Of a DNA stretch of 12,639 nucleotides, positions 1 through 6,753 are shown one piece after another (positions within the stretch are counted from its first letter, which is position 1; each line of letters opens with the position of its first letter). The notes beneath the pieces are model-generated. The model was not told where the DNA came from and made no database searches. It was given only the letters and a program-made list of their open reading frames with translations. This stretch comes from a virus (taxonomy: Duplodnaviria > Heunggongvirae > Uroviricota > Caudoviricetes), in IMG/VR virus record IMGVR_UViG_2740892258_000015, positions 1-12,639 of that record, one strand, 5' to 3'. A program made the translations under genes and the position numbers.

Positions 1-516
1 ATGAAATTTAAAAAATGTCTTCTGCCTGTGGCAATGTTAGCGTCATTCACTCTGGCAGGATGCCAGTCAAATGCTGATGATCATGCCGCCGATGTTTATC
101 AAACCGATCAACTGAATACCAAACAAGAAACTAAAACCGTTAATATTATTTCCATTCTTCCCGCAAAAGTTGCCGTAGACAACGCCCAAAATAAACGGAA
201 CGCACAAGCCTTCGGCGCGCTTATTGGCGCTGTCGCTGGCGGTGTTATCGGCCACAACGTCGGGTCTGGCAGCAATTCCGGAACGACGGCAGGTGCAGTT
301 GGCGGCGGAGCTGTAGGCGCGGCAGCGGGTTCTATGGTGAATGATAAAACCTTAGTGGAAGGTGTTTCTTTAACATATAAGGAAGGCACCAAAGTGTATA
401 CCTCCACCCAGGTGGGTAAAGAGTGCCAGTTTACGACAGGTTTAGCCGTTGTTATTACCACGACGTATAACGAAACGCGTATTCAGCCAAATACCAAATG
501 TCCTGAAAAGAGCTAA
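1..516 (+). CDS. Lipoprotein with glycine-zipper motif (SlyB/YcfJ-like envelope protein)
   Basis: ATG at window position 1. Signal peptide with lipobox LAGC (MKFKKCLLPVAMLASFTLAGC). Gly/Ala-rich stretch GALIGAVAGGVIGHNVGSG..GAVGGGAVGAAAG typical of glycine-zipper outer-membrane lipoproteins. Family call from memory of YcfJ/SlyB-type sequences. Confidence 0.7.
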   Translation: MKFKKCLLPVAMLASFTLAGCQSNADDHAADVYQTDQLNTKQETKTVNIISILPAKVAVDNAQNKRNAQAFGALIGAVAGGVIGHNVGSGSNSGTTAGAVGGGAVGAAAGSMVNDKTLVEGVSLTYKEGTKVYTSTQVGKECQFTTGLAVVITTTYNETRIQPNTKCPEKS

Positions 517-531
517 TAATCAGGAGGAGTC

Positions 532-1071
532 ATGAAGAAAGTTTTTCTTTGCGCCATCTTAGCCTCCTTAAGCTATCCGGCTATCGCCTCATCATTGCAG
601 GATCAACTCTCGGCTGTCGCAGAAGCGGAACAGCAAGGTAAAAATGAAGAGCAAAGGCAGCATGACGAATGGGTCGCGGAGCGCAACAGGGAAATCCAGC
701 AAGAGAAGCAACGTCGCGCAAACGCCCAGGCCGCGGCTAATAAAAGAGCGGCAACGGCAGCAGCGAATAAGAAAGCTCGTCAGGATAAACTGGACGCCGA
801 AGCCACTGCGGACAAAAAACGCGATCAAAGTTATGAAGATGAGCTACGTAGCTTAGAGATTCAGAAACAAAAACTGGCGCTGGCGAAAGAAGAAGCCCGC
901 GTCAAGCGCGAAAACGAATTTATCGATCAGGAACTGAAGCACAAAGCTGCGCAAACCGATGTGGTGCAATCTGAAGCTGACGCAAACAGAAATATGACTG
1001 AAGGCGGTCGCGATCTGATGAAAAGCGTGGGTAAAGCAGAAGAGAATAAATCAGATAGCTGGTTTAACTAA
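532..1071 (+). CDS. Secreted lysine/glutamate-rich coiled-coil protein, function unknown
   Basis: Strong RBS AGGAGG 6 nt upstream of the ATG. N-terminal signal peptide (MKKVFLCAILASLSYPAIASS). Highly charged low-complexity body. Followed by a hairpin terminator. Confidence 0.6.
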   Translation: MKKVFLCAILASLSYPAIASSLQDQLSAVAEAEQQGKNEEQRQHDEWVAERNREIQQEKQRRANAQAAANKRAATAAANKKARQDKLDAEATADKKRDQSYEDELRSLEIQKQKLALAKEEARVKRENEFIDQELKHKAAQTDVVQSEADANRNMTEGGRDLMKSVGKAEENKSDSWFN

Positions 1072-1109
1072 ACGATGTTAGTAACTTCAAACCTATAATT
1101 CTTTAGGAT

Positions 1110-1140
1110 AAAAAAACCCTCTGTAGTAACAGAGGGTTTT
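1110..1140. terminator. Bidirectional intrinsic terminator between the convergent envelope genes and the lysis cassette
   Basis: A7 run (1110-1116), stem ccctctg (1117-1123), loop tagtaa, stem cagaggg (1130-1136), then tttt (1137-1140). Gives a U7 tract on the minus strand and U4 on the plus strand. Confidence 0.6.
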
Positions 1141-1289
1141 GTTCATTCATAGTGCAGGGTCAAATCATTCCCACTCAATTATTTACGACAACCATAACCA
1201 ATTGAGTGATAACATTTTTCCAAATCTCAATTTTTCCCGTACCGTTTTATATACCGTCACCGGAAATCAGTACCATGAAAAATGCCATG

Positions 1290-1772
1290 CTATCTGGTCA
1301 AAGTGTCGTACTGTTTTTCGCAGACTCTTCCGGCTTCGGCTGCCCGGTCAGCATACTCTGCCAGTTGTCTGTTTCTCTCGAGAGATTTGCTGAGCACGTC
1401 GGCAAGCAAAACTCCGGTGTCTGCGGCTGACGACCCAGCGCCGACAATGGCGTTATACTGCCTGAGCTGCTCACGGATGGCAAAGAGTTGTTGCTGCAAC
1501 CGGCCAGCGCTAGCGGCAGCATCAAGAGCATCATTGCGCGCCTGGTCGATCCTCTGCTGAGCTTCACGTTCATTGGTCACTTTCTCCTGTTCGTAGTACT
1601 GACGAACTTTGTCTTCTTCGGCTTTGCTGTCTTCTTCCGCCTGAGCATACCCGGCATCGTACTGGCGACTGCCGTGTATATTCCAGGCAACCACTCCTGA
1701 TATGACCAGAACAGCAAGCACTGCCACGATAAGAAACTGTTTCCAGTATGCTTTTACGAATGCCCAGATCAT
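1290..1772 (-). CDS. Rz-like inner-membrane spanin (i-spanin)
   Basis: N-terminal TM segment ([18 protein letters not shown]) followed by a long charged coiled-coil region with a C-terminal Cys. Its ATG (1772-1770) overlaps the endolysin stop as ATGA. It is the last gene of the lysis cassette. Confidence 0.7.
1298..1573 (-). CDS. Rz1-like outer-membrane lipoprotein spanin (o-spanin), embedded in the Rz gene in a different frame
   Basis: Lies wholly inside the Rz ORF in a shifted frame. RBS AGGAGA 9 nt upstream of the ATG at 1573. Lipoprotein signal with charged n-region and lipobox LAGC ([26 protein letters not shown]). Predicted mature part is proline-containing. Confidence 0.6.
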   Translation of the reverse strand: MNVKLSRGSTRRAMMLLMLPLALAGCSNNSLPSVSSSGSITPLSALGRQPQTPEFCLPTCSANLSRETDNWQSMLTGQPKPEESAKNSTTL

Positions 1773-2398
1773 ACCGCCAGCACCTTACTGGCAGTGATGT
1801 ACCGCGCTCGCCGGTCGTCGATGCCGTTCCGGCCACCATTGATAATCAGAGTTACACGTGCAATATCGCCGGTATACTTCATGCATCCTTTGCTGGCGAA
1901 GAACCACGCCGCGCTACGAGCCGCATATTCGTCCTGCGCCAGCAGTTCAGGGCTCTCCAGCAGGTCAACCTTCAGACCGTTTCCGCAATCACGATAGTTA
2001 TTCAAACCGGTAATCTGGATAAGTCCGCGCCCTCGGTAATTCCAGCCATCACCAGGGGCATTGTTCCCCATGCGTTTGCTGTATACCAGATTTGCGATCG
2101 CGCGCTGGCGCTCAAGTGGCAATGGTGGTTCACCAGCACGGCGCCCCAGTGCATTAGCCTGCCCCTGAGTGAGACGCCCAGCCCGAACGAAGTTAGCCAG
2201 TCCGCTGACACTGTAGTTGAAATTCTCCTGCAACCTGGTGAAGCCCCCAGACTCATGCCCGACTTGAGCAATAAACATTGCCTGATCTTCTGCTTTGCTG
2301 ATACCAAACTCTTTCATCGCAGAAGTTATATGCGAGAACCAGCGTGCGGCCAGTGCCTCGCTGATACCAGCAGCTCGCTGGAATTGTTTAATCTCCAT
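1769..2398 (-). CDS. Endolysin, glycoside hydrolase family 19 (chitinase-like lysozyme)
   Basis: Internal ATG at 2398 with RBS GAGGT 6 nt upstream; the longer track ORF to 2563 has no RBS. Motifs QVGHESGGF and [11 protein letters not shown] are characteristic of GH19 phage endolysins (from memory). Flanked by holin and spanin genes. Confidence 0.8.
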
Positions 2399-2696
2399 GT
2401 TTAGACCTCGATACTTTAAAAATTTGAACGACGTTACCGCGCGTTTTAATAACCGCAGCCAGCATGACAGCGTTGATAATGACCTCAGATAAATCCACAG
2501 CCATTGGCGTACGTAACCAGATTGCATAGGCGACTCGAACAGGAATACTGGCCGCAGCAACAATCAGGAAATAAGCAAGCCATCCTCCCCACCTTCGATG
2601 TTGAGAGCCGTTACGCCGGAATGTGACAACGCGAATTGCTATGCCAGTGCAAATAACTGCATTAGTGATAAGCAAAAAAAACTCATGCGTTACCAT
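2388..2696 (-). CDS. Small membrane protein in the lysis cassette (possible second holin or antiholin)
   Basis: Three hydrophobic segments and a basic C-terminus. ATG at 2696 with a GGAG-containing upstream sequence. Overlaps the holin stop by 14 bp and the endolysin start by 11 bp. No family recognised. Confidence 0.4.
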
Positions 2697-3087
2697 CGTC
2701 TTTTCTCCCCGGAATTAACTCGCGTGGATTATCGGAACGGTGATAGAGCCATATACCAATACGCACAGCGACAATTGCTGACACGAATGCGCCTGCAGAG
2801 AAAACAATCCCTTTTTCAAAAGAGTCCTGCGTGATGGTAGGGATCAGGCTGGCTATGCCGATAAGAATTGATGCTGCTGGTTTGTAAAAGAGAAGGCCGC
2901 AAAGAAAGCTGAGCATCGACAGGAGCACCCGGCGACGGATGGGGTACTCTACTGCAGAGGTAACAAAAATTACCGCCCCAGCCAAAGCCCCTAAAGCAAC
3001 CTCCGGAGGGACACCTGCAATAACTGCAGCAAGAGAACCAAAACTAAGCAACTGATTTAATTGCTCACTTGTTACTTGAGCAGACAT
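2683..3087 (-). CDS. Putative holin (multi-TM membrane protein with charged C-terminus)
   Basis: ATG at 3087 with RBS AGGAGA. Four to five hydrophobic helices and a charged tail ([19 protein letters not shown]). First gene of the lysis cassette, directly upstream of the endolysin. Confidence 0.55.
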   Translation of the reverse strand: MSAQVTSEQLNQLLSFGSLAAVIAGVPPEVALGALAGAVIFVTSAVEYPIRRRVLLSMLSFLCGLLFYKPAASILIGIASLIPTITQDSFEKGIVFSAGAFVSAIVAVRIGIWLYHRSDNPRELIPGRKDDGNA

Positions 3088-3368
3088 ACTTTCTCCTGTT
3101 TACTATCTATAAGCCAGTCAATTATTGATGACTAAACCCGCATAGTAAACCATATATGAATCATTATTGTTCCATATCATATATCTCAATAAAAGTACTA
3201 ATGATTTTACAGAACGAGCCAGCAGAGTGGGGGCAGTTGTACAGGAACCATAGACTTAATTTTGTATTTAATAATGCTATGGTGTAATAAACCTGAACAT
3301 GTATTTAAAATACGTACTGATTCATGATAGAATTCAAAGATAACTTTTCACCAACTCCGTTTTTGATA

Positions 3369-3395
3369 CCCGCAATATTTTGCGGGCTTTTTTTT
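3369..3395 (+). terminator. Intrinsic terminator oriented for the plus strand, inside the regulatory region upstream of the lysis genes
   Basis: Stem cccgcaa (3369-3375), loop tatt, stem ttgcggg (3380-3386), then a T8 run (3388-3395). On the minus strand the hairpin is followed by UAUCAAAAA, so it is weak in that direction. Confidence 0.5.
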
Positions 3396-3425
3396 AACGT
3401 TCTTCCAGAGACTGAACCCGCTCTT

Positions 3426-3878
3426 TTATCTTATCCATTTCTCTGCGCTGCCATGCTGCCTCGATATAGAATAAGAGATCAGGTCTGACCCCTCTTGGGC
3501 CACCAGATTTTTTGCAGCTTCTATAGCAGCATCCACCCCCTGCGCCCGTACTTCAGCCAAGAAAGCGTCGGTGGCTGTGGTTTCGATATCGTTAATTTCA
3601 GGAAGAATCTCTTCCCATGTAGCGATATCGCCATTCAAATGCCATCCGGCAATTCCACTGGAGTTATCCGCAACACTGCGAACGGCTTCAATAGTTTCAT
3701 GCATTGCCTCATTCTCCGCTGCCAGCGCATTAGCACGCACCAGTTGCACTTCCAGTTGCGTTGCCAAATCGCTGATCAGCTTTGCCACACTGCGCATATC
3801 AACGGCACCACATTCTGCTTTCAGTTCCGAAGCCATCTCATGCCCGGCGGCAACTAACCCTTTGATATTACTTTCCAT
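3426..3878 (-). CDS. Hypothetical strongly acidic protein (150 aa) in the position normally held by antiterminator Q
   Basis: RBS GAGGG 5 nt upstream of the ATG at 3878. By my count about 25 Asp+Glu against 11 Lys+Arg. Only one Cys, so no zinc finger. No family recognised. Confidence 0.5.
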   Translation of the reverse strand: MESNIKGLVAAGHEMASELKAECGAVDMRSVAKLISDLATQLEVQLVRANALAAENEAMHETIEAVRSVADNSSGIAGWHLNGDIATWEEILPEINDIETTATDAFLAEVRAQGVDAAIEAAKNLVAQEGSDLISYSISRQHGSAEKWIR

Positions 3879-3939
3879 CTTTACCCTCGCTTATCCACAT
3901 AACTTATTGATTACATTGATAACTAAAAAGATCGTCGAT

Positions 3940-4287
3940 TCAGAACTCTTCGATGTTCCAGCCACCACCTGCTTTCTTTGGCTTAACCGTTACCCCGATG
4001 ATTCGGAACGGATACTGATCTGCGGCGACTTTGGTTTTCACTCTGGCGTCATCGGTCCAGAATCCCCCTTTCACTTCGTGCAGTTCCATCTCGCCGGTGG
4101 CGAGCATCACAGCAAAATCTGGCGTATAGAACGTGTTGTCAGCTAACCGCAGCTTGATACCCTCAAATCGATACCAGACGATTTCTCCTGCACGTTTACG
4201 CAGCTCAAGGTGCTGGCAATACGCAGATTCTGTTTTGTTCATCTGGCCTGTTTTGAGTCGACCAAGAGCCTGCATCTGTTTTCTCAT
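3940..4287 (-). CDS. PD-(D/E)xK-type nuclease, DUF1064-like (nin-region resolvase-like protein)
   Basis: RBS AAGGGG upstream of the ATG at 4287. Motif YTPDF...ELHEVKG fits a PD...(D/E)xK catalytic core. Size and position (between P and the late region) match nin-region nucleases of lambdoid phages. Family name is from memory. Confidence 0.55.
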   Translation of the reverse strand: MRKQMQALGRLKTGQMNKTESAYCQHLELRKRAGEIVWYRFEGIKLRLADNTFYTPDFAVMLATGEMELHEVKGGFWTDDARVKTKVAADQYPFRIIGVTVKPKKAGGGWNIEEF

Positions 4288-4290
4288 GAT

Positions 4291-4368
4291 TTACCCCTTA
4301 GGTAATTAAAAACCACATAAGACACGAAATCAATAGATTTTAGAATATTTTATTACCTCTAAGGTAAT
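4291..4368 (-). promoter_or_regulatory. Operator-flanked promoter for the nuclease/acidic-protein operon
   Basis: Two TTACC-N5-GGTAA palindromes at 4291-4305 and 4354-4368. On the minus strand: -35 TTGATT (4328-4333), 17-bp spacer, -10 TTTAAT (4305-4310) overlapping the proximal operator. Same layout as the promoter at 7396-7472. Confidence 0.45.
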
Positions 4369-4369
4369 T

Positions 4370-4389
4370 ATCGAGACGTAAAAAAATGC
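4370..4389 (-). terminator. Weak candidate terminator after the P-like gene
   Basis: Short GC stem gcgc/gcgc (4378-4389) followed on the minus strand by a U7 tract (plus-strand A run 4370-4376). The stem is only 4 bp. Confidence 0.25.
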
Positions 4390-4404
4390 GCTATCGCGCT
4401 GGTA

Positions 4405-5205
4405 TTACTTGATAAATCCTGACGCCTTTCCCCGCCTGTATTCCTCCATCAGCCACTGCGCCGGTGTTATTCCCCCAAGGGTGGCGGCGTTAGGCATGCA
4501 CCCGAAACTTCGCCCTGGTGGATGGTAAACGTCTCTCCCTGTGTCCGGAGGCGTACTCATGGGTTCTGGCTTTGCCTGTATGCTGATCACCGGATCGGGT
4601 ATCTGCTGTCCGGAAGCCACCTTTTTCGCCCAATCATCGAGCAGCCTGCGCGCGTGTTTCTCAACCTCAATCTCGCTAAGCTGGCGCTGATACATTGCAC
4701 GGCGGGTATCACATACGACCCAGTACATAACCGGATGTCGCCACGGGAATCTTTCGGGACCACCAGGATATAAACTTTTTTCCTTGCTGTACCGGTGAAA
4801 CTCCGCCATCACATCGTCAATGGTGACGCCAAGAACCATCTTGCTGTCTTTACACCACTTGATGAATTGCCCTGGCGACGGCCAGAACGGAGACTCACTG
4901 GCGCGGGCGTGGCGCATACCAGCAGAAACCTGTTCACGGGTTCGGATCCCCCCTTCGGCAAACGCAGCAATCCACTGCTGTTTTGCAGCAACTTCCTGCT
5001 CTGGCGTCTTCAGGTTGGTTACCACTGCCGCCGGAAACAGTTGTTTCAGCTGTTTGAAAAGGGCATCAACAAGCCTCTCTGCTGACATGTTCACCACGTT
5101 GTCATTGTTGGTGTACTGATGCTCATAACCTGACATGCGAGAAAGGGCTTCTCCGTCACGGTTTTGTATCGCGGTAAAAACGTTGTTCACAAGAAATCCT
5201 CCCAT
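4405..5205 (-). CDS. Replication protein P-like (DnaB helicase loader)
   Basis: Segment LFKQLKQLFPAA..QQWIAAFAEGGIRTREQVSAGMRHAR..PFWPSPGQFIKWCKD parallels lambda P (..TFPAS..RRQWVLAFRENGITTMEQVNAGMRVARRQNRPFLPSPGQFVAWCRE, recalled from memory). Start overlaps the O-like gene by 19 bp. Confidence 0.8.
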   Translation of the reverse strand: MGGFLVNNVFTAIQNRDGEALSRMSGYEHQYTNNDNVVNMSAERLVDALFKQLKQLFPAAVVTNLKTPEQEVAAKQQWIAAFAEGGIRTREQVSAGMRHARASESPFWPSPGQFIKWCKDSKMVLGVTIDDVMAEFHRYSKEKSLYPGGPERFPWRHPVMYWVVCDTRRAMYQRQLSEIEVEKHARRLLDDWAKKVASGQQIPDPVISIQAKPEPMSTPPDTGRDVYHPPGRSFGCMPNAATLGGITPAQWLMEEYRRGKASGFIK

Positions 5206-6002
5206 GCTTCAGGGCTGTTCCAGTGCGGAACGTTGTTATCAGGTAATGTTGATTGCTTCTGTCTGCTAATCTGCAGCCGCCTTGCCAGCTTCTGCTCCCA
5301 CTGTGCCTGATGGTATGCCTTACCCTCAGCCATCCAGTAAATTCTGAACTCTGCAAGTTCCTGTGCCGTTGGCAGACTGTCCAGGCAGATCCCCTGCAAT
5401 GAGCTTTTCCGAAGAAAGTCATCTGATGGCTGCCATTGTTCATGCATGACAAATTTGCCTAATTGCCCTGGCCCACCAGGAGGAACAAAGTTATTCATCA
5501 CGGCGTTGTTTGCGCCGGGGTCATGATGCACAGAATCCCCGTTTTTTGTCCTGCTCTCCCTCTCTTGGTTAAATGACTGGTTATATGACTGGTTCTGGAT
5601 CCCGTTTTTGGGATCATTCAACATCCCGTTTTTGGGATCATTCAACATCCCGTTTTTGGGTATATTCCCGTTTTCGGTAACATTACCGTTTTCGGGTTCA
5701 TTGCCCCCCTCTCGGTTGCCTTTAATGTTCCCGTTTTTGGTTATATTAAGAGAGAAAACCCGCACTCTTTTTGTCGCTCCCTTTCTCTCCCCGGTATCTG
5801 AAATAAGCCCCATTTTCATGAGCGATATAAGTCCGGCCTGCACGGTTTTTTTATTCAGGCAAGTGTCTTTAACGAGGCGTTCTATGCTGGGGTAGCAGAG
5901 GTTATATTCATCGGCTCTGTCAGCCATCGAGAGCAGTATGAGCTTTAATGACGAGCTACCTGGATCTGTCTCCCAGGCCCAATCTGTTGCATGTCTGCTC
6001 AT
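5187..6002 (-). CDS. Replication initiator protein O-like (origin-binding)
   Basis: RBS GGAG 7 nt upstream of the ATG at 6002. N-terminal HTH-type replication-initiator domain. A central Asn/Gly-rich repeat is encoded by the iterons. C-terminal FVMHEQWQPSDDF..YWMAEGKAYHQAQWEQKLARRLQISR resembles the lambda O C-terminal P-interaction domain. Confidence 0.8.
   Translation of the reverse strand: MSRHATDWAWETDPGSSSLKLILLSMADRADEYNLCYPSIERLVKDTCLNKKTVQAGLISLMKMGLISDTGERKGATKRVRVFSLNITKNGNIKGNREGGNEPENGNVTENGNIPKNGMLNDPKNGMLNDPKNGIQNQSYNQSFNQERESRTKNGDSVHHDPGANNAVMNNFVPPGGPGQLGKFVMHEQWQPSDDFLRKSSLQGICLDSLPTAQELAEFRIYWMAEGKAYHQAQWEQKLARRLQISRQKQSTLPDNNVPHWNSPEAWEDFL
5598..5745. repeat. Iteron array (putative phage origin of replication) inside the O-like gene
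   Basis: Six copies of core YCCGTTTTYGG starting at 5600, 5624, 5648, 5666, 5684 and 5729. The first two are perfect 18-bp palindromes (gatcccgtttttgggatc) containing GATC sites. An adjacent direct repeat atgactggtt occurs twice (5573-5582, 5585-5594). Confidence 0.7.
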
Positions 6003-6017
6003 GATTAATCTCCGCTA

Positions 6018-6218
6018 TCAGCTTGAATGTTGTGGGGAGGAATTAATCATGATCTGCTTAATCTCTGCCCTGATACGACGGTTTGATTCCATGGTGCACT
6101 CAACACAGTGTCCGTTGTAAACCCAGCGTTCACTGTCATGTCCGTGCTTACATGTTTTTCCGGTGTAGTAGCGTTTAAGTCCGCGCTTTGCGGCATCAAT
6201 ACGTGTAATGATTTCCAT
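6018..6218 (-). CDS. Small Cys/His-containing protein (possible zinc ribbon) in the cII position
   Basis: Internal ATG at 6218 chosen over the longer track ORF. Motif CKHGH...HCVEC. Lies between the Cro-like gene and O. Possible promoter and a TTACC-N5-GGTAC operator lie upstream (6253-6313). Confidence 0.4.
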   Translation of the reverse strand: MEIITRIDAAKRGLKRYYTGKTCKHGHDSERWVYNGHCVECTMESNRRIRAEIKQIMINSSPQHSS

Positions 6219-6320
6219 GGTAAGCCCTGTTATTAGTATTGGGATTACGGTCATTTTGTGCTGACACAAAAAAAAGATCAACCAGATTTGGTTTTTTATT
6301 ACCTTTGAGGTACGAATAGA

Positions 6321-6346
6321 TATGAAAAGACCGCCGGATGGCGGTC
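6321..6346 (-). terminator. Candidate terminator after the Cro-like gene (tR1-like)
   Basis: Stem gaccgcc (6329-6335), loop ggat, stem ggcggtc (6340-6346); followed on the minus strand by UUUUC. Confidence 0.4.
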
Positions 6347-6368
6347 TACAGAGGGTTGTGGCTGGATA

Positions 6369-6599
6369 TCATGAGTAGAAGAAGTATGCCAATTCTGCTT
6401 TTGAGCGCAGCCATTGTCTTGTTTTACAGGCTTTAAAAAGCCCATTCATCAATACCTTACCTGGCATTTTGCGCTTACCTGTTAAGTGAGTCTGGATATA
6501 GTGACTCGTCGTTCCGGCTTCCTGTGCGAAGGCTTCACGCTCATCCGGAGTAAGTGCAAGCCAGTGCTTTTTGAAATCGAAATGTCCGTTATCGCTCAT
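6369..6599 (-). CDS. Cro-like HTH regulator (YdaS/Cro-type)
   Basis: 76 aa with HTH-like segment EAFAQEAGTTSHYIQTHLTGKRKMP. Transcribed divergently from the repressor across an operator-rich intergenic region. Heads the leftward cluster (small Cys/His protein, O, P); a terminator and a second promoter lie between it and those genes. Confidence 0.55.
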   Translation of the reverse strand: MSDNGHFDFKKHWLALTPDEREAFAQEAGTTSHYIQTHLTGKRKMPGKVLMNGLFKACKTRQWLRSKAELAYFFYS

Positions 6600-6630
6600 A
6601 GCTATTGCCTGATATTTATTTCAGATAATA

Positions 6631-6701
6631 AATATTCACCCATAAGGTAACAAAAATCAAGGATAGTTACCTGTGGGGTGCATTTACCTGTTGGGTAATA
6701 T
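6631..6701. promoter_or_regulatory. Divergent immunity-region operator/promoter (OR-like)
   Basis: Operators TCACC-N5-GGTAA (6636-6650) and TTACC-N5-GGTAA (6684-6698), plus a wider GGTAAC-N14-GTTACC dyad (6646-6671). Minus-strand promoter for the Cro-like gene: -35 TTGATT (6655-6660), 18-bp spacer, -10 AATATT (6631-6636). Possible -10 TAATAT (6696-6701) toward the repressor. Confidence 0.5.
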
Positions 6702-6753
6702 TGCTTTAAATTGAATCATCTACTGATTCATATACGAGGCGATTTTCCAGAAA

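What the first reader, a model, noticed from the sequence alone, without database searches (positions are those of the whole stretch)
3088..3425. No Q or N antiterminator is recognisable, and the lysis cassette is preceded by a terminator facing the wrong way
Lambdoid late genes are normally turned on by Q acting at a promoter and terminator upstream of the holin. Here the gene in the Q position is an acidic protein with one cysteine, and the first gene after the pL-like promoter is not arginine-rich like N. The 338-bp AT-rich region upstream of the holin has no TTACC-N5-GGTAA operator. Its only strong hairpin plus T8 terminator (3369-3395) faces the plus strand, antisense to the lysis genes. 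Candidate plus-strand promoters lie upstream (-35 TTAAAA 3305-3310 with -10 TAGAAT 3328-3333; or -35 TTGTAT 3262-3267 with -10 TAATAA 3285-3290). That would give a 55-100 nt antisense RNA overlapping the late leader, analogous in principle to oop or sar RNAs.
Basis: partly seen in the sequence, partly recalled or inferred. Interest (0 to 1): 0.55.

Follow-up and report, generated by a model that had tools for sequence, protein, structure and literature searches.

The report
Deletion scar beside a one-way terminator
The "missing Q gene" comes from a 28-kb deletion in an epsilon15-like E. coli K1 prophage, which placed an early gene next to the lysis genes; the backward-facing terminator is real, but it belongs to the spacer between the tailspike and lysis genes of the intact phage.

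Summary
There is a 7-bp GC-rich hairpin plus T8 on the + strand at 3369-3395, no TTACC-N5-GGTAA operator in 3088-3425, and no Q/N-family protein. The lambdoid reading does not hold.

The window is an epsilon15/phiV10-like (Uetakevirus) prophage lying between yfgI and guaA. It matches E. coli APEC O18 except for 2 SNPs and a 28,076-bp deletion with its junction at 3492|3493. The deletion removed every virion gene. The "150-aa acidic protein in the Q position" is a fusion: 129 aa of a 173-aa Eae-like protein plus 21 out-of-frame residues from the 3' end of the endosialidase tailspike gene.

In intact relatives, 3088-3393 is the tailspike-holin spacer. Other family members carry counter-oriented serotype-conversion genes there. 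The hairpin abuts the tailspike stop codon.

My best reading is that it is a one-way terminator closing a short, gene-less counter-oriented unit, while late transcription passes through to the lysis genes. A ~55-nt sRNA is possible but untested.

Interest is low to moderate.

The parts
3369..3395 (+). Intrinsic terminator on the + strand. Stem 3369-3375 / 3380-3386, loop 3376-3379, C3387, T8 3388-3395. The last two T plus A3396 are the complement of the tailspike TAA stop codon.
   Evidence: 0.05 such elements expected per shuffled window. The stem is invariant in 24 copies, and the loop occurs in two mutually inverted forms, TATT and AATA.
3304..3333 (+). Sigma-70-like promoter candidate: -35 TTTAAA/TTAAAA, 17-18 bp spacer, TG-extended -10 TGaTAGAAT.
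   Evidence: The hexamers are invariant in 24 copies, but divergence is too low to be informative, and promoter-like hits are not enriched over shuffles.
3340..3395 (+). Hypothetical non-coding transcript of about 55 nt: an unstructured 5' region, a U-rich stretch (3360-3364), the terminator hairpin and a U8 tail.
   Evidence: Inferred from the promoter and terminator. No ORF fits. No Rfam family matches. No target in the prophage scores better than shuffled controls.
3394..3492 (-). Remnant of the endosialidase (K1 tailspike) gene: the last 32 codons plus the stop, translating to ...GVRPDLLFYIEAAWQRREMDKIKERVQSLEER*.
   Evidence: It is 100% identical to APEC O18 and IAI39, where it ends a 1039-aa tailspike.
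3492..3493 (.). Junction of the 28,076-bp deletion relative to APEC O18 (L005 3918-31993 missing). There is no microhomology.
   Evidence: A 30-mer spanning the junction is absent from IMG/VR, JGI metagenomes and GTDB representatives. No place in the 5426 complete E. coli genomes covers at least 80% of a 501-nt query spanning it. The fusion protein occurs in one assembly only, GCA_001245225.1, inside a 146-kb contig.
3426..3878 (-). Chimeric ORF. Residues 1-129 come from a 173-aa Eae-like protein (3493-3878). They are followed by 21 residues read out of frame from the tailspike 3' end.
   Evidence: The native protein matches phrog_492/614/368 (function unknown) and is annotated as an Eae-like protein in phiV10 and epsilon15.
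3146..3159 (-). Family-conserved motif TCATATATGGTTTA (consensus CCATATATGGTTTA), ending 58 nt upstream of the holin ATG.
   Evidence: It is present in all 39 distinct spacer types at the same distance from the holin start. It also occurs upstream of the tailspike, portal, DUF1064 and replication units.
3098..3150 (-). Structured leader of the lysis operon. The base stem is GUUUACUAU / AUAGUAAAC, enclosing an imperfect hairpin that ends just 5' of the AGGAG ribosome-binding site.
   Evidence: In the family alignment A1, 95.6% of cells are paired against 34-55% in slid controls, with covariation score 0.32 against 0.13 or less. The epsilon15 homologue folds at -34 kcal/mol (z = -6.4) and its GenBank record labels it a putative RNase III site.
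1290..3087 (-). Lysis cassette: Phage_holin_8 membrane protein 2683-3087, Phage_holin_3_7 holin 2388-2696, GH19 endolysin 1769-2398, and DUF2514 spanin 1290-1772 with an embedded lipoprotein ORF 1298-1573.
1116..1137 (-). Same-sense intrinsic terminator closing the lysis operon, next to the prophage end beside yfgI.
   Evidence: The phiV10 record annotates an equivalent terminator.

Best explanation
The interval is the tailspike-to-lysis spacer of a K1-capsule-specific epsilon15/phiV10-like (Uetakevirus) prophage. In this one isolate a 28-kb deletion has joined it to a truncated early gene.

Shown: in the intact phage the order on the late strand is tailspike (endosialidase), a 306-bp spacer, then the lysis genes. 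There is no Q gene at this position in any relative.

Shown: in relatives the spacer is a hypervariable slot. It often carries counter-oriented lysogenic-conversion genes, such as phiV10 oac and epsilon15 gp21/gp22. In some of them (for example L081 and L030) a terminator sits within a few bases of the tailspike stop.

Inferred: the K1 version keeps a strong counter-oriented terminator directly against the tailspike stop codon, plus an upstream promoter-like site, but no gene. I read the hairpin-T8 as a one-way insulator. It stops + strand transcription that starts in the slot from running antisense into the tailspike and virion genes. Because it has no U-tract in the other direction, late transcription from the tailspike promoter can pass through it to the conserved lysis leader (motif 3146-3159, hairpin 3098-3150) and the holin. 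Any short + strand RNA is a by-product of this arrangement, or at most a minor regulator.

Inferred: in the deleted prophage of this window, the early-right operon (DUF1064 and the Eae fusion) now reads straight into the lysis cassette with no terminator in between.
For: - Identity and deletion.
- Family architecture, with the lysis genes after the tailspike.
- The slot varies from 99 to 3126 bp with tailspike type, and holds counter-oriented ORFs of 259-646 aa in many relatives. Terminators abut the tailspike stop, either counter-oriented only (L081) or in both directions (L030, L077, L080).
- All 17 K1-type loci have the 305-308-bp slot, no counter-oriented ORF of 60 aa or more, and the same counter-oriented hairpin.
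- The phiV10 acyltransferase position is described as a known moron position in PMC3573123.
- Terminator strength and rarity.
- No same-sense terminator lies between the tailspike stop and the holin in the K1 slot, and there is no operator there. Both fit co-transcription of the lysis genes with the tailspike.
- The 43-aa + strand ORF 3156-3287 acquires a stop codon in 4 of the 24 aligned copies (3230 G>A), so it is not a conserved gene.
Against: - There are no expression data, so the + strand promoter is only a consensus match in AT-rich DNA.
- The 72 genomic and 19 viral copies are 97.5-100% identical, so conservation says little.
- A promoter-like site for the lysis genes themselves (TTGAGA-18-AATGAT, 3189-3160 on the - strand) lies directly upstream of the motif. 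Read-through from the tailspike may therefore not be needed.
- No trace of a decayed conversion gene was found in the slot, so the 'emptied moron' history is not demonstrated.
- A strong terminator kept next to a promoter with no gene between them also fits a functional small RNA.
Confidence: 0.55

Rival explanations
1. The promoter-terminator pair is a true small-RNA gene (about 55 nt, possibly about 100 nt), carried as a non-coding moron in place of the O-antigen-modifying genes of related phages. It would be expressed in lysogens and act in trans through Hfq, or in cis on the tailspike-lysis read-through transcript.
For: - The terminator is strong and has a U8 tail.
- A U-rich stretch (3360-3364) lies just 5' of the hairpin, and about 28 nt of unstructured sequence lies upstream. 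From my own knowledge, this resembles the Hfq-binding module described for enterobacterial sRNAs.
- The -10 is TG-extended.
- No ORF fits between promoter and terminator.
- The unit is retained unchanged in all 24 aligned copies, and its hairpin-T-run core recurs in every K1-type locus surveyed.
- It occupies a slot that in relatives holds host-modifying genes.
Against: - No Rfam family matches, even at E of 10 or less, beyond terminator-driven noise.
- No paralogue exists elsewhere in E. coli.
- No predicted target in the prophage scores better than shuffled controls.
- There is no covariation or divergence to test selection.
- The promoter is not statistically distinguishable from AT-rich background.
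Confidence: 0.25
2. The hairpin works on the late (-) strand. It would act as a 3' stabiliser or a weak, non-canonical terminator or processing site for the tailspike mRNA, and the T8 run would be incidental.
For: - The hairpin begins 8 nt after the tailspike stop codon.
- It folds slightly better on the - strand (-14.2 kcal/mol, z = -4.3).
- Several relatives have same-sense terminators 4-11 nt after the tailspike stop.
Against: - On the - strand the stem is followed by UAUCAAAAAC, with no U-tract, while the + strand has a perfect U8.
- The T-run is kept at 7-9 T in all copies.
- The loop flips orientation freely while the T-run stays on the same side.
Confidence: 0.12
3. One reading: a lambdoid phage that lacks Q and N, whose late/lysis leader is controlled by an oop/sar-like antisense RNA, with the acidic 150-aa protein as a possible novel late regulator.
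For: No Q or N family protein was detected. A + strand terminator and a promoter-like site are present.
Against: - The 150-aa ORF is a deletion fusion found in one assembly.
- In all intact relatives a tailspike gene, not a regulator, precedes the spacer.
- The genes that natively precede the late operon were deleted. They include a phrog_536 'transcriptional regulator' just upstream of the small terminase.
- The putative RNA does not overlap the conserved lysis leader.
Confidence: 0.03

Closest known systems
Escherichia phage vB_EcoP_ZX5 and the K1-type Uetakevirus prophages of ExPEC/APEC strains (APEC O18, IHE3034, IAI39, APEC O1)
   Same: Window 3088-3492 is 99.3% identical to ZX5. The window is 100% identical to APEC O18 over 1-3492, and differs by 2 SNPs over 3493-12639. 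The integration site (yfgI-guaA), endosialidase tailspike, spacer, hairpin and lysis cassette are the same.
   Different: The window lacks 28,076 bp: everything from the Eae-like gene 3' end to the tailspike 3' end, including all virion genes. It cannot make particles, and it carries a fusion ORF absent from all of these relatives.
Lysogenic-conversion slot of epsilon15 (gp21/gp22) and phiV10 (oac O-acetyltransferase)
   Same: It holds the same position, between the tailspike gene and the Phage_holin_8 gene. The content is counter-oriented and AT-rich. A terminator sits at the tailspike end of the slot in epsilon15, as annotated in its record, and in several other relatives; phiV10 has only 12 bp between the two convergent stop codons and none is annotated there.
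   Different: The K1 slot is only 306 bp and holds no gene, only a promoter-like site and a terminator. It shares no sequence with other slots except the lysis-leader motif.
Lambda Q / pR' / tR' late module
   Same: Both lie upstream of a holin gene, and both include a hairpin-plus-T-run element.
   Different: There is no Q-family protein. The terminator is on the opposite strand. The upstream neighbour is natively a tailspike gene. In this family the transcription units examined (replication, DUF1064, portal and tailspike) each have their own operator and conserved motif; the holin unit always has the motif and has the operator in about 14 of 39 spacer types.
Lambda oop and P22 sar antisense RNAs
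   Same: These are short transcripts that end at an intrinsic terminator and run antisense to a phage mRNA.
   Different: oop and sar overlap the coding or ribosome-binding region of a regulator (cII, ant). Here the overlap would be with the tailspike 3' end and an untranslated read-through segment, not with the lysis leader or any ribosome-binding site. Expression is unproven.

Membership tests
Lambda-type Q antitermination module | A Q-family antiterminator protein encoded immediately upstream of the late promoter | tested here: not met
   No Q, N or other antiterminator family matched the 18 window and prophage proteins scanned with Pfam, or the early and Eae-region proteins also scanned with PHROGs and NCBIfam. 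The ORF in that position is an Eae-like/tailspike fusion.
Lambda-type Q antitermination module | A same-sense terminator (tR') between the late promoter and the holin gene | tested here: not met
   The only strong terminator in 3088-3425 is on the opposite strand.
Uetakevirus (epsilon15/phiV10-like) temperate podovirus | Nucleotide identity and gene order: int, early-left genes, repressor, cro, replication, Eae-like, terminase, virion genes, tailspike, holins, GH19 endolysin, spanin | tested here: met
   The window is collinear with these phages, apart from the deleted terminase-to-tailspike block.
Intrinsic (Rho-independent) terminator | A GC-rich stem-loop immediately followed by a U-tract on the transcribed strand | tested here: met
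   On the + strand there is a 7-bp stem with 5 GC pairs, a 4-nt loop, then C and U8. On the - strand the hairpin has no U-tract, so the feature is not met there.
Moron (autonomous promoter-gene-terminator insert in a phage genome) | Own terminator, plus base composition unlike the flanking phage genes | tested here: met
   Terminator. GC content is 34-36% in 3001-3450, against about 46-55% in the flanking genes.
Moron (autonomous promoter-gene-terminator insert in a phage genome) | A protein-coding gene between promoter and terminator | tested here: not met
   No conserved ORF is present. The 43-aa ORF is interrupted in some copies, and there is no translated similarity to cargo genes in related slots.
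Moron (autonomous promoter-gene-terminator insert in a phage genome) | A functional own promoter | tested here: inconclusive
   There is a consensus match with a TG-extended -10, but it is not enriched over shuffles and there are no expression data.
Hfq-dependent small RNA | A terminator hairpin with a long 3' U-tail, preceded by a U-rich stretch | tested here: met
   Read directly from the sequence: UUUUU at 3360-3364, the hairpin, then U8. The criterion itself is recalled from the literature and was not checked here.
Hfq-dependent small RNA | A discrete transcript, Hfq binding and defined targets | not testable with these tools
   No RNA data are available. There is no Rfam match and no in-prophage target above background.
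cis-antisense regulator of the oop/sar type | The transcript overlaps the ribosome-binding site or coding region of the regulated gene | tested here: not met
   The predicted RNA (about 3340-3395) lies 180 nt or more upstream of the lysis leader (3098-3159). It overlaps only the last 2 nt of the tailspike ORF.

The most novel reading that the evidence does not exclude
K1-specific Uetakevirus prophages, common in ExPEC, APEC and neonatal-meningitis lineages, would carry a non-coding conversion cassette where their relatives carry O-antigen-modifying genes. This would be an Hfq-type sRNA of about 55 nt, made in lysogens from 3304-3395, that either reprograms a host target or times lysis by pairing with the tailspike-lysis read-through transcript.
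Probability: 0.2. Interest if true: 0.55.

Novelty: new member of a known kind. Interest (0 to 1): 0.25.

Why it matters
The main value is corrective. An apparent "Q-less lambdoid lysis control" turns out to be a private deletion in a well-known prophage type. Junctions in defective prophages should be checked against intact relatives before gene order is interpreted.

Two smaller points could be followed up. First, the gene-less, one-way promoter-terminator cassette sits in the conversion slot of prophages carried by many invasive K1 E. coli, and may encode an sRNA. Second, the regulatory layout of the epsilon15-like family looks distinctive. Operator, CCATATATGGTTTA motif and structured leader recur in front of most of the transcription units examined, which may explain how these phages manage without a Q-type cascade.

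In this isolate the deletion also puts the lysis genes directly downstream of an early operon, with no terminator between them. That predicts induction-dependent lysis without virion production.

Tried and rejected
- Rfam, at gathering thresholds and at E of 10 or less: nothing beyond terminator-driven noise.
- tRNA scan: none.
- Exact junction 30-mer in IMG/VR, JGI metagenomes and GTDB species representatives: absent.
- Hairpin pattern in GTDB representatives: absent. In IMG/VR it occurs only in the same K1-type context.
- Distant BLAST of the spacer against phages and E. coli genomes: only near-identical copies. CUS-3 and other K1 phages match only the endosialidase coding part, 3423-3492.
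- Search for a decayed conversion gene in the slot, by blastn-short and by six-frame peptides against related slots: nothing significant.
- Small-ORF hypothesis: the 43-aa ORF is interrupted in some copies, and the 54-aa ORF runs through the terminator.
- Target prediction for the putative sRNA against 53 translation-initiation regions of the prophage: no better than shuffled sequences.
- PDB sequence searches with the Eae-like protein and the phrog_536 regulator: no informative hit.
- Literature searches for sRNA or transcriptome data on these phages: nothing relevant.
- I first took TATGAT, just 3' of the motif, for a -10 element. I dropped that when it proved to be the 5' arm of the leader hairpin.

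Full report
**1. What the window is**

The ORF map shows two host genes, yfgH and yfgI, at 1-1071. Next comes a lysis cassette on the - strand (spanin, GH19 endolysin and two holin-type genes, 1290-3087). It is followed by the interval in question, a 150-aa ORF, DUF1064, P-like and DnaT-like replication genes, cro, a divergent HTH repressor, an early-left operon (exonuclease, RecT, AlpA, PerC, MT-A70) and an integrase.

BLAST against 5426 complete E. coli genomes and against phage records places all of this in epsilon15/phiV10-like temperate podoviruses, genus Uetakevirus. The closest isolated phage is vB_EcoP_ZX5, 99.3% identical over the spacer (PMC9782041).

**2. The deletion**

No place in any complete genome covers at least 80% of a 501-nt query spanning 3492|3493. 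In APEC O18 the two halves of the window are 100% and 99.98% identical but lie 28,076 bp apart. Window 1-3492 equals L005 426-3917, and window 3493-12639 equals L005 31994-41140. There is no microhomology at the break.

The missing block holds the rest of the early-right operon. This includes a phrog_536 'transcriptional regulator' homologous to phiV10 gp55 and epsilon15 gp49, sitting just upstream of the small terminase. The block also holds the terminase, portal, capsid and internal-virion genes, several accessory genes, and all but the last 99 nt of a 1039-aa endosialidase tailspike gene.

The 150-aa ORF is therefore a fusion. Its first 129 residues equal the native 173-aa Eae-like protein. 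Its last 21 residues are tailspike DNA read out of frame. Its 'one cysteine' and its position next to the lysis genes both follow from the deletion.

The fusion protein exists in one public assembly, GCA_001245225.1, inside a 146-kb contig. The junction 30-mer is absent from IMG/VR, JGI metagenomes and GTDB representatives. This is a private deletion in one isolate, not a family feature.

**3. What the interval is in intact phages**

The endosialidase stop codon is the complement of 3394-3396. The true spacer is therefore 3088-3393, or 306 bp. It lies between the tailspike and the first holin-type gene.

In epsilon15 the same position holds the counter-oriented serotype-conversion genes gp21 and gp22. 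In phiV10 it holds the counter-oriented O-acetyltransferase oac. In strain AST205 it holds a counter-oriented acyltransferase. PMC3573123 treats the phiV10 position as a known moron site.

I surveyed 80 IMG/VR loci that carry the same holin. The slot ranges from 99 to 3126 bp, and its content tracks the tailspike type. Many versions carry counter-oriented ORFs of 259-646 aa. Hairpin terminators often sit within about 10 nt of the tailspike stop. They face the same way, both ways, or (L081) only the counter direction.

All 17 K1-type loci have a 305-308-bp slot with no counter-oriented ORF of 60 aa or more, and all have the same counter-oriented hairpin plus T7-T9.

**4. The terminator**

The element is real and strong. 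Under strict criteria the window contains only three such elements, against 0.05 expected. The other two close the repressor gene and the lysis operon, which argues that the third is functional too.

It is unidirectional. The - strand reads A8-hairpin-UAUCAAAAAC. Among 24 aligned copies the stem and the promoter-like hexamers never vary. The loop exists as TATT or as its inversion AATA, a flip of the palindrome. The T-run varies between T7 and T9.

Overall divergence is only 0-2.5%, so neither conservation nor covariation can test function. The hairpin pattern is not found outside this prophage context.

**5. The + strand unit**

A TG-extended promoter-like site (3304-3333) would give an RNA of about 55 nt, with a U-rich stretch before the hairpin and a U8 tail. 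No ORF fits. The only sizeable + strand ORF, 3156-3287, gains a stop codon in 4 of the 24 aligned copies.

Rfam gives nothing. There is no trace of a decayed gene, and no in-prophage target scores above background. An sRNA remains possible but unsupported.

**6.

All 39 distinct spacer types share the motif CCATATATGGTTTA (K1 version TCATATATGGTTTA, 3159-3146), ending 58-60 nt from the holin ATG. GGUUUA pairs with UAAAC just 5' of the ribosome-binding site. The pair encloses a long hairpin whose interior differs between types but stays paired.

In alignment A1, 95.6% of cells are paired against 34-55% in slid controls, and the covariation score is 0.32 against 0.13 or less. The epsilon15 leader folds at -34 kcal/mol (z = -6.4). 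The K1 leader folds at -17 kcal/mol (z = -2.8). The epsilon15 GenBank record labels this element a putative RNase III site.

The same motif lies upstream of the tailspike, portal (gp3), DUF1064 and replication units. It is usually 22-32 nt downstream of a TTACC-N5-GGTAA operator. The epsilon15 record annotates 7 such operator sites as repressor sites, including sites upstream of the small terminase, gp3 and the tailspike.

This suggests that most of the transcription units examined have their own operator, rather than a Q-type cascade. About 14 of 39 spacer types have an operator at a fixed position, about -120 from the holin ATG. The K1 type and many others do not.

**7. Mechanism**

I commit to the following reading, at confidence 0.55. 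The hairpin-T8 is a one-way terminator marking the far end of a short, gene-less counter-oriented unit in the conversion slot. It shields the tailspike and virion genes from antisense transcription. Late transcription passes from the tailspike promoter, which has both operator and motif, through the spacer to the lysis leader.

The absence of a same-sense terminator and of an operator in the K1 spacer fits this. The main rival is a functional sRNA (0.25). A role on the - strand as an mRNA 3' stabiliser is less likely (0.12). The lambdoid Q-less antisense model is essentially excluded (0.03).

In the deleted prophage of this window, the operator-controlled DUF1064/Eae-fusion operon now runs into the holin genes with no terminator between them. 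Derepression should therefore give lysis without particles. That step is inferred.

**8. Verdict**

The prophage type, the conversion slot and the leader element are already in the literature or in database annotations. The gene-less promoter-terminator cassette of the K1 variants has not, to my knowledge, been described. It is at most a new member of a known kind: a prophage moron or sRNA-type cassette.

Noticed in passing
window 3146-3159, 4308-4321, 6278-6295 (all on the - strand); L005 7001-7014 and 26780-26793; L006 3307, 20920, 24738, 33134: A conserved motif, (C/T)CATAT(A/G)TGGTT(T/A), recurs upstream of the lysis, tailspike, portal, DUF1064 and replication units of epsilon15-like phages. 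It is usually 22-32 nt downstream of a TTACC-N5-GGTAA operator. L005 has 3 matches at 2 mismatches or fewer against 0.3 expected, and phiV10 has 6 against 0.28. The factor that recognises it is unknown, and its role is open: it could be a transcription start region, a 5' stem or a protein-binding site.
   Followed up: partly
window 3098-3150 (- strand); alignment A1: The lysis operon has a structured leader with support from covariation across 23 spacer types. The K1 version keeps the base stem and a hairpin even though its interior sequence is unrelated.
   Followed up: yes
window 3376-3379: The terminator loop is polymorphic between TATT and its exact inversion AATA (4 against 20 of 24 copies), with the stem unchanged. 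This is the signature of palindrome flipping. The adjacent T-run varies between T7 and T9.
   Followed up: partly
window 4291-4305, 4353-4367, 6299-6313, 6636-6650, 6684-6698, 7396-7410, 7458-7472: The window has seven TTACC-N5-GGTAA operators (0.21 expected). In the intact APEC O18 prophage, further copies precede the tailspike, portal, terminase, integrase and accessory-gene units. This suggests the repressor (or Cro) controls most of these transcription units directly.
   Followed up: partly
L002 5543-5676 (E. coli AST205 prophage, same slot): The counter-oriented acyltransferase ends in 16.8 perfect copies of an 8-nt repeat, GCACAGCA. The repeat length is not a multiple of three, so this may be a phase-variable contingency locus in the manner of neuO.
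   Followed up: partly
window 10533-11194: The MT-A70 DNA methyltransferase gene is split into two overlapping ORFs (10533-11003 and 10874-11194). It is also annotated as frameshifted in APEC O18.
   Followed up: no
L005 30098-30436 (deleted from the window): A 112-aa phrog_536 'transcriptional regulator' (homologous to phiV10 gp55 and epsilon15 gp49) is the last gene before the small terminase. It has no Pfam, NCBIfam or PDB relative. It is the obvious candidate late regulator of this phage family.
   Followed up: partly
window 10608 and 11543: These are the only two base differences from APEC O18 across the retained 12.6 kb, so the deletion is evolutionarily very recent.
   Followed up: no
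window 3423-3492: Similarity to the endosialidase genes of the P22-like K1 phage CUS-3 and other K1 phages (93-94% identity) stops about 29 nt before the stop codon. The tailspike module boundary therefore lies inside the last codons of the gene, not in the spacer.
   Followed up: no
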